A stretch of 60,177 bases of DNA, the filler included, from Hausera hauseri (lineage: Eukaryota), in the NCBI GenBank assembly GCA_046269625.1. It is 12 parts of 12 records of this genome, joined end to end, with 100 filler letters (N's around TTAATTAATTAA, not from the genome) between each part and the next. Parts side by side here need not be neighbours in the genome. Positions count along the whole stretch, not along the records: positions 49,931 to 54,680 come from JBJURY010450468.1; 11 more parts are not named here. One strand, written 5' to 3'. The notes beneath the pieces are model-generated. The model did not search any database, was not told where the DNA came from, and saw only the letters and a list, made by a program, of their open reading frames with translations. The position numbers and the translations under genes were made by a program. Positions 53,054 through 54,780 of the stretch are shown one piece after another (within the stretch, counting starts at the first letter, position 1; each line of letters starts with the position of its first letter).

Positions 53054-53150
53054 TGTGGTGCCCGCGTTGACAGTCGCCCTCTGGTCCATTCGGTTGGGCA
53101 CGGTCGGCTTCCGCTACCGTAACGTCGGACACATAGGCAGGCCCGATTTT
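53054..53150 (+). mobile_element. LTR 5' head of a nested, opposite-orientation insertion in the Gypsy RT
   Basis: TGTGGTG..GTCCATTCGGTTGGGCACGGTCGGCTTCCGCT matches the LTR start at 50186 (minus) and 12390 (minus); RT sequence stops exactly here. Confidence 0.75.
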
Positions 53151-53284
53151 CTGCCTTGAAAACTAAAATAAATCAATAGAAAGGATGTCTCTATATTATA
53201 TTGTTAATTGTTCAACATCTCTCCAAACAAATCCAAATATCGTTCATATTTAATAAAGAATACTGTCTACCATATGTGACTTTA

Positions 53285-53599
53285 ATGCCAGAACCCTTAG
53301 TCGATATCAAAGATTTGGACCAGTGGATTGATCATTTATATGAAAACAAACAATTACATGAATCAAAAGTTAAAATATTATGCGATGCAGCAAAAGAATC
53401 GTTGTCCCGAGAAGCGAATGTTCAACCAGTTAAGTGCCCAGTTACAGTTTGTGGTGACGTGCATGGTCAGTTTCACGATCTTATGGAACTGTTTCAAATA
53501 GGCCGGAAACTTCCAGATACAAATTATTTATTTATGGAGGATTACGTGGATAGAGGTTATTACTCTGTTGAAACTGTAACGCTTTTGGTTGCCTTAAAG
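53285..53599 (+). pseudogene. PPP2CA: PP2A catalytic subunit N-terminal fragment, intronless, fused to unrelated sequence
   Basis: [62 protein letters not shown] changed to EDYVDRG; similarity ends at ALK. Confidence 0.9.
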
Positions 53600-54780
53600 T
53601 CCAAATTTGTCAGTATCCGAAATCTCGCTTTATTTCGAGGTCTTGATGTGGCGCTGCGGCTTCAGGTGCTACCCCTATTCACGACAGGTTACAATTTGGT
53701 GCCACTAAGCCAGCACGATTTTCGGTCTGCTCTTTGCCCTTTTGGTCCTTGTTCGGCTTGCGGTCGAACAATCATTTATCAAATGCAGTATTACTGAAAG
53801 TTTTTTCATAAACATCAAGTAAGAAGAGAAATTGCCGATACAGTTCATGCCCAGTAAACCTGAAAGAGGTGCATGCAGACTAATGAGATTTGCAGAAGCC
53901 AAAATTATTAACATAAAAATTTATGTTCTAGGTATCAGTCCGCCTAATTATTTGACGTCGAATATTTCTGTCAATAAATTATAATCTTGTGAAACTGCTG
54001 CTTCTTCTTTAATTCCTGTGAATTTGAATTTAGTGCCCTTTGCTATCTTAACTTAGATTTCTCAGATACAAGCTTTCAACGTTAAAACCACGACGAACAA
54101 ATCTCACCTCAATAACGACTTCATATCGACGAAATAAATTGTGATTCCAATATTCCTAAAATTGGCAGCTACAATTTTTACTTGTCGTAGAGACCAATAT
54201 TGTCAGATGCAGTTTTACACTTGTCGATCAATTGTTTTTGTGAATAAGTTAACCGATGTGAACTAGTGCAAGGATTATCTCCATCATATTTTATTTAACA
54301 ATTTGTAATTTGTTTGAAATAAATTGATTTTTTTGCCCATATTGAATTTTAGCCATTTAGTCCTTTCAGTTTTAAATCTTATTTTGGAATTGCAGTATTT
54401 ATTCTTTTTAGACTGTGAGATATTTATCGTCGATATTTATTTGTGATTAAATTTTAATTCGTTCTCGAATCGCTATATTCTCGGATAATTTTATCATCAT
54501 TACACAGACAGCATACGTGAAACCAAAAGAATATGACAAAAGACCGTTCATACACAACAGTGGAAGAGAATATCCCAAAAAATAAAGGTCTGAAACAAGG
54601 TCGATGAACAACAACATTGCTCAGGACCAGAAACCACATGCCAGTTTGATCGCAGATAGGCGAAGACAGGCTCCAACTCANNNNNNNNNNNNNNNNNNNN
54701 NNNNNNNNNNNNNNNNNNNNNNNNTTAATTAATTAANNNNNNNNNNNNNNNNNNNNNNNNNNNNNNNNNNNNNNNNNNNN

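What the first reader, a model, noticed from the sequence alone, without database searches (positions are those of the whole stretch)
53054..54680. LTR head followed directly by a captured PP2A fragment: LTRs with variable host cargo
Seen: a ~95-nt GC-rich sequence that is the true LTR start at 50186 (directly after a PPT) recurs at 53054 and 12390. After the head the three copies are unrelated. At 53054 the head is followed within ~130 bp by an intronless, mutated PP2A N-terminal fragment fused in frame to 66 unrelated codons. Inference: this Gypsy family has conserved LTR termini with a replaceable interior that takes up host transcript pieces. These could act as promoters or decoys, or seed small RNAs against host genes.
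Basis: partly seen in the sequence, partly recalled or inferred. Interest (0 to 1): 0.75.

Follow-up and report, generated by a model that had tools for sequence, protein, structure and literature searches.

The report
One-off phosphatase piece behind retrotransposon end
In what is likely a parasitic flatworm, a low-copy, damaged front third of a PP2A phosphatase gene sits just behind what is probably a short, complete retrotransposon end repeat, most likely a one-off copying accident of a known kind and not a family of repeats that swap host cargo.

Summary
A 95-100 nt head at 53054 (+) recurs at 50186 and 12390 (both minus strand) at 70-77% identity, with nothing alignable beyond it. PP2A-C residues 1-105 start at 53285 and run in frame into 65 unrelated codons. 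The interpretation mostly fails. The three heads lie on two artificially joined contigs and look like different subfamilies. In a public run, many other copies share the 53054 sequence for about 215 nt (summed depth 320 or more), up to an AATAAA and a plausible LTR end near 53274. Depth then falls to 6 across PP2A. So the LTR is probably a normal repeat of about 220 bp, the PP2A piece lies after it, and the cargo did not multiply. No host cargo was found behind the other heads. The element cuts an older Gypsy RT exactly at 53053. Best reading: an LTR-mediated chimeric retrocopy (Tan et al. 2016), 0.55. The 3' LTR, target duplication and parent gene were not seen. More striking: a 1308-codon, four-gene, in-frame chimera on the next contig.

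The parts
53054..53274 (+). Probable whole short LTR (about 220 bp) of a CsRn1-like Gypsy subfamily. Start is firm; end is inferred within a few bases.
   Evidence: 52 contigs of run X1 have loose, varied letters before 53054 (agreement 0.39). Depth is 322 or more up to 53268 and 12.8 in the next bin. AATAAA at 53252-53257 and an ATA-type end at 53274 are seen in the sequence.
53054..53150 (+). GC-rich head (62% GC) shared with 50186 and 12390; its first ~54 nt are shared with a far larger set of copies
   Evidence: depth 13,985-17,019 in the first two bins
53275..53284 (+). Position where a primer-binding site would lie; only a partial, degenerate likeness to the published CsRn1-type tRNA-Trp site
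   Evidence: sequence compared by eye with the site given in PMC2582038; one other X1 contig shares the sequence to 53290 and then diverges (record 3)
53285..53599 (+). PP2A catalytic subunit residues 1-105, no intron, ending at a conserved exon end with no GT after the Lys codon; G74R and G85E
   Evidence: one X1 contig 53237-53658, 0 differences, depth 6.14
53600..53797 (+). 65 in-frame codons plus stop with no detectable relative; open by chance in 1138 of 20000 shuffles
53740..54382 (.). Low-copy unidentified DNA (other contigs about 91-93% alike over 53740-54179) containing a ~60-nt mid-copy piece at 54096-54155
   Evidence: tables 2, 7, 8; no Pfam family
54383..54680 (.). Very high-copy repeat of unknown kind, cut by the contig end
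   Evidence: depth 59,922 and 248,833 in X1; spacer at 54681-54780
50330..53053 (-). Older decayed Gypsy pol (RT, RNase H, integrase; stops and frameshifts). The RT is cut at 53053 by the inserted LTR and its front half is not on this contig.
   Evidence: tblastn with the RT ORF of another copy starts exactly at 53053
50192..50197 (-). Polypurine tract of the older element
   Evidence: same context at 3941-3946
49931..50186 (-). 3' LTR of the older element, starting with the head; end not determined (contig edge at 49931)
12291..12390 (-). Third head, on a different contig; no purine tract before it; a 9-nt inverted match lies at 11371-11379

Best explanation
The locus is most likely a one-off chimeric retrocopy: a probable 220-bp 5' LTR followed by a piece of a PP2A gene, likely made by the retrotransposon's own copying and inserted, in the opposite direction, into the RT gene of an older related element. 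Shown: the LTR start, the cut RT, the PP2A piece joined on both sides to foreign sequence, its low depth and its two lesions. Inferred: reverse transcriptase left the element RNA just after the LTR and copied a co-packaged PP2A RNA from about its start codon to the end of that exon. It then went on into other RNA, either by a further switch or because the exon had already been spliced to a foreign acceptor. Integrase inserted the product, whose 3' LTR would lie beyond the contig end. The copy did not spread detectably and is decaying; the peptide would lack the C-terminal two thirds of the phosphatase.
For: The RT match ends on the base next to the TG. The LTR is not followed by the rest of the RT or by a target duplication, so it is not a plain solo LTR. 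PP2A is in the LTR's sense direction, about 10 nt after the inferred LTR end. It stops exactly at an exon end without the GT. One contig of run X1 bridges both PP2A junctions with 0 differences. Partial, sense, in-frame, 3'-truncated pieces are the published pattern (PMC5131818). Another contig holds an intronless four-gene chimera whose joints fall at residues shared by both partners, which suggests RNA-level recombination in this genome.
Against: No 3' LTR, purine tract or return to element sequence was found in the 1.1 kb after PP2A. The parent gene was not found (best protein 81%; no second long match laid in X1), so junction microsimilarity is untested. Met to K105 can be a single exon elsewhere, so an RNA step is not proven. 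The primer site is only a partial likeness. X1 may be the source sample, and no listed contig bridges the RT/LTR joint. The four-gene chimera is on an unlinked contig and was not checked against reads.
Confidence: 0.55

Rival explanations
1. Independent juxtaposition. An ordinary LTR element inserted into the RT. A PP2A pseudo-exon arrived later by a LINE-type retrocopy or a DNA-level duplication or deletion, with no part played by the LTR element's enzymes.
For: Single-locus depth; no 3' LTR; a patchwork of low-, mid- and very high-copy pieces follows; the piece may be a single genomic exon.
Against: It needs PP2A to land in sense, with its start codon about 10 nt behind the LTR end, and to stop exactly at the exon end. 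No poly(A) is visible after the piece.
Confidence: 0.27
2. One reading: the family keeps its LTR ends and swaps the interior for host transcript pieces.
For: The head is about as conserved as pol while the rest is unalignable. Between the head at 12390 and a 9-nt inverted match at 11371 lie about 1 kb with a 157-codon open frame. The first ~54 nt are shared by far more copies than the rest.
Against: The subfamily shares the sequence to about 53270, and PP2A is at depth 6 against 320 or more. No family or Atlas hit was found for frames after 12390. A fourth relative at 3950 has the same purine tract but lacks the head. Variable LTR bodies with conserved ends are the norm (PMC3601003).
Confidence: 0.07
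3. The piece is the first coding exon of a resident, divergent PP2A paralogue, with the LTR just upstream as a possible promoter.
For: Several changes need two or more base substitutions (C21N, K35A, I39S), as in a diverged paralogue. No near-identical parent was laid. This genome seems to have long exons (a 216-codon TCF25 frame ending at a GT).
Against: G74R and G85E replace Gly found in 171 of 171 hits. There is no GT after the Lys codon. Upstream there is only LTR and a cut RT.
Confidence: 0.06
4. Assembly chimera between repeat and gene contigs.
For: Fragmented assembly of a very repeat-rich genome; no listed contig spans the whole stretch.
Against: A separately assembled contig covers 53237-53658 with 0 differences, with more than 31 letters beyond both PP2A ends.
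Confidence: 0.05

Closest known systems
LTR-mediated retroposition, chimeric retrocopies in animals (Tan et al. 2016, PMC5131818; abstract, 12 passages and section 5 read; supplements not opened)
   Same: Partial host sequence in sense behind an LTR, cut at its 3' end, in frame with the parent protein; one reported switch site lies near exon-exon junctions; multi-gene chimeras occur.
   Different: There both LTRs (5 cases) and microsimilarity (25 of 29 joints) were shown; here neither could be seen. The animals named in the parts read do not include flatworms.
CsRn1 clade of Ty3/Gypsy (PwRn1, AgCR; PMC2582038, 12 passages read; its file of LTR ends is an image and was not seen)
   Same: LTR sizes of 146-381 bp in the passages seen, TGT...ATA end variant, purine tract before the 3' LTR, CHCC Gag motif in a sister copy in the window.
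   Different: Primer site only partly alike; no 4-bp target duplication found; no RT tree with named references was built.
General LTR architecture (Benachenhou et al. 2013, PMC3601003, 12 passages read)
   Same: Conserved short ends and AATAAA with a variable body.
   Different: Here about 95 nt at the 5' end, not about 7-15, stay alignable between subfamilies; the reason is unexplained.
Gene capture by plant transposons with siRNA cross-talk (bioRxiv 10.1101/777037; search listing and start of abstract only)
   Different: No small-RNA or RNA data exist here, and the cargo is a single low-depth locus.

Membership tests
LTR-mediated chimeric retrocopy | Partial host gene sequence directly adjoining LTR-element sequence on its 5' side | tested here: met
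LTR-mediated chimeric retrocopy | Element sequence and a 3' LTR on the far side | tested here: inconclusive
   none within 1.1 kb; contig ends at 54680
LTR-mediated chimeric retrocopy | Loss of a parental intron | tested here: inconclusive
   no intron in 315 nt, but this stretch appears as one exon in other genomes; parent structure unknown
LTR-mediated chimeric retrocopy | Microsimilarity at the joints | not testable with these tools
   no genome held; parent not found
LTR-mediated chimeric retrocopy | No poly(A) tail or own target duplication of the L1 kind | tested here: inconclusive
   no poly(A) seen by eye after 53599; the 3' end of the insert is unknown
CsRn1-clade Gypsy | pol order RT, RNase H, integrase | tested here: met
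   Pfam on the sister copy at 25661-28247; 71% DNA identity to 51146-53029
CsRn1-clade Gypsy | Gag CX2HX9CX3C motif | tested here: met
   in the sister copy on the first contig, near position 245; gag of the 53054 element itself is absent
CsRn1-clade Gypsy | tRNA-Trp primer-binding site after the 5' LTR | tested here: inconclusive
   scan with 2 mismatches finds none at 53275; partial likeness by eye only
CsRn1-clade Gypsy | 4-bp target-site duplication | tested here: inconclusive
   none after any CA in 53151-54680; far end of the element is off the contig
CsRn1-clade Gypsy | RT phylogeny with named references | not tested
   no reference RT was in hand (one search found none)
LTR carrying a structured RNA (Cassandra- or retrozyme-like; names recalled) | 5S, tRNA or ribozyme match, or a conserved fold in the head | tested here: not met
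   no Rfam match at the heads among 13 window matches at E up to 5; 0 tRNA; z-scores -0.90 to 0.76 for 6 folds; covariation term +0.46 on 3 sequences
Cargo-carrying amplified non-autonomous LTR family | Cargo present in many copies | tested here: not met
   depth 6.14 from one contig against 322 or more for the LTR

The most novel reading that the evidence does not exclude
This flatworm's huge CsRn1-like family works as an RNA-recombination engine that serially fuses host mRNA pieces in reading frame, with translation or decay filtering which chimeras survive. The PP2A fusion would be an early step and the 1308-codon ferrochelatase/dynein/two-pore-channel/SLC12 frame on the next contig a five-joint product, in a lineage that lacks Piwi control.
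Probability: 0.2. Interest if true: 0.6.

Novelty: new member of a known kind. Interest (0 to 1): 0.22.

Why it matters
As it stands this is one more LTR-associated gene fragment. It extends a known duplication route to a probable parasitic flatworm; my two searches listed no such report, which is a thin test. It also warns that such loci produce false PP2A gene models. It would matter more if the four-gene in-frame chimera on the next contig is real and has the same origin: five in-frame joints of five would point to selection on the reading frame of captured RNA, testable by a genome-wide survey.

Tried and rejected
Whole genome: none held, so copies of the head could not be collected with their flanks. 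Metagenome scans with a head motif and with the RT found nothing. Run search: 2 holders, no RNA holder listed; this is no evidence on expression. Run X2 holds a small share and was used only as a side check. No near-identical parent PP2A was laid in X1, but the tool drops human-like contigs, so this proves nothing. Structured RNA in the head: rejected. Tail as a diverged PP2A continuation, suggested by a MAFFT alignment: rejected; 562-1155 of 2000 shuffles reached the score against 5 proteins, and a profile from 26 of 120 homologues gave no hit. Tail as another gene: 4 hits at E up to 0.001 were all tandem-repeat proteins scored by 6-10 summed stretches; Atlas score 0.75, a lead only. Tail as antisense gag of the same family: no tblastn hit. 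Apparent TATA-like likeness between LTR bodies: not significant. 36 short frames after 53300 and after 12390 gave 2 Pfam hits, both below cut-off. A paper search for the human exon boundary found 0 papers, so the boundary rests. Earlier findings: none by place or sequence.

Full report
Setting. The window is 12 contigs of 4-6 kb joined by N44-TTAATTAATTAA-N44 spacers; the finding lies on contig 49931-54680. No genome is held. A two-pore channel piece on the next contig has its best named hits in cestodes and trematodes at 40-44% identity, above molluscs and fish at 30-37%. I infer a neodermatan flatworm; that this holds for the finding's contig too is an assumption.

The head is real. The three copies match at 70-77% over 84-95 nt, far above shuffles, and no fourth copy exists in the window. 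50186 and 12390 read on the minus strand. 50186 follows a G6 tract, and the element on the first contig has the same tract before an LTR start at 3950 that lacks the GC-rich head. In run X1, 52 contigs have loose, varied letters before 53054 (agreement 0.39); in both runs these loose ends are purine-rich next to the start. A tblastn with the RT frame of a sister copy begins exactly at 53053. So 53054 is a true element start, inserted in the opposite direction into an older RT. Beyond nt 100 the copies are unrelated. The head has no Rfam or tRNA match and no unusual fold.

What follows the head. Summed contig depth is not a copy number, but the contrast is large. In X1 it is 13,985-17,019 over 53044-53133, 322-721 over 53134-53268, 12.8 in 53269-53313, and 4-10 over 53314-53673, where one contig of depth 6.14 covers 53237-53658 with no difference. 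The drop falls just after AATAAA (53252-53257), at a sequence ending in ATA at 53274. CsRn1-clade LTRs are 146-381 bp in the passages seen and can end in ATA (PMC2582038). I infer a whole LTR of about 220 bp. Against full certainty: no well-supported loose end at about 53270 was among the 12 of 89 rows shown, and one contig shares the sequence to 53290 before diverging (record 3), so the start codon may come from the element. The heads differ about as much as the window's pol copies (67-72%), so they likely belong to different subfamilies, whose LTR bodies are expected to be variable (PMC3601003).

The PP2A piece. Residues 1-105 match PP2A-C (E 1.5e-48; best identity 81%). Among 171 aligned hits (the 17 channel hits were left out), Gly74 and Gly85 are invariant and are Arg and Glu here. 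C21N, K35A, I39S and S44A replace residues kept in 166-167 of 171. The piece ends at the Lys where three vertebrate isoforms skip to IFCL, and where several other database proteins leave the PP2A sequence at a Val, which I read as running into an intron (5 of 7 proteins viewed do so clearly). Here the Lys codon is followed by TCC, not GT. The same proteins suggest that Met to this Lys can be one exon, so the lack of an intron does not prove an mRNA source. The 65-codon tail has no relative and is open by chance in 1138 of 20000 shuffles, so the in-frame fusion needs no selection.

Rest of the contig. 53740-54179 has other contigs at about 91-93%, 54096-54155 is a short mid-copy piece, and 54383-54680 is a very high-copy repeat. 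No second LTR, purine tract or target duplication was found. After 12390, Pfam and the Atlas found no host piece.

Mechanism. LTR, then a sense host piece from about its start codon to an exon end, then foreign sequence, all inside an older RT, fits template switching during reverse transcription as described by Tan et al. (PMC5131818); confidence 0.55. Steps shown: the start, the cut RT, both PP2A joints in one run that may be the source sample, the low depth and the lesions. Steps inferred: the LTR end, the RNA intermediate, the switch and the off-contig 3' LTR. A later independent arrival of the piece keeps 0.27. On function: a peptide that stops at residue 105 with two invariant glycines changed is very unlikely to be a phosphatase, and there are no RNA data. 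Neodermatans lack Piwi but have an Argonaute loaded with retrotransposon siRNAs (PMC8191739), so a small-RNA effect is possible but untested.

Context. The next, unlinked contig holds a stop-free 1308-codon frame made of ferrochelatase, two short pieces of an outer-arm dynein heavy chain, a two-pore channel, a long piece of the same dynein, and an SLC12 transporter. The first joint falls at IAK, present in both human partners; the other joints also seem to fall at shared residues, by eye. It supports RNA-level recombination in this genome only indirectly, and it is more surprising than the finding itself.

Novelty. New member of a known kind. A search for Platyhelminthes with chimeric retrocopy and LTR gave 0 papers; a monogenean search listed 15 of 89 papers, none holding that term. 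Eight earlier AI notes from other genomes describe captures filed under the same paper, seven of them with amplified cargo (unchecked). Supplements were not read; the CsRn1 file of LTR ends and primer sites could sharpen the LTR end call. Interest 0.22.

Noticed in passing
window 54783-58707 (-): Stop-free, intronless 1308-codon frame fusing ferrochelatase, three separate pieces of a DNAH5-like dynein (about human residues 1643-1683, 3352-3386, 3441-3921), a two-pore channel and an SLC12 transporter, all in frame, with joints at shared residues. Deserves its own follow-up; not checked against reads.
   Followed up: partly
window 13523-16312 (-): 929-codon frame with no Pfam family, a hydrophobic stretch and a weak ISG20-like exonuclease match at residues 640-721 (E 0.0003); it ends 1.1 kb before the 12390 head.
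   Followed up: partly
window 30710-35384: Contig of 61% GC with simple repeats and a 711-codon frame, unlike the 33-41% GC of the others; possibly host contamination.
   Followed up: no
window 11371-12390 (-): Perfect 9-nt inverted match 1002 nt apart, with a 157-codon frame between that has no hit: either a 1-kb solo LTR or chance; no target duplication seen by eye.
   Followed up: partly
window 29540-30250 (-): Upstream of gag in a sister element: a likely LTR end and primer-site region near 29570 and a 156-codon frame at 29780-30250 that was not searched.
   Followed up: no
window 42234-42884 (+): TCF25 frame of 216 codons that ends at a GT, probably one long resident exon.
   Followed up: partly
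window 38277-40577 and 46336-48588: Two copies, 74% alike over 2.4 kb, of decayed frames that look like a family B DNA polymerase (label recalled, not tested).
   Followed up: no
window 35636-36419 (+): Broken frames that look like a mariner-type transposase (label recalled, not tested).
   Followed up: no
window 53054-53107: The first ~54 nt of the LTR are shared by far more copies than the rest and stay alignable between subfamilies without a detectable fold; reason unexplained.
   Followed up: partly
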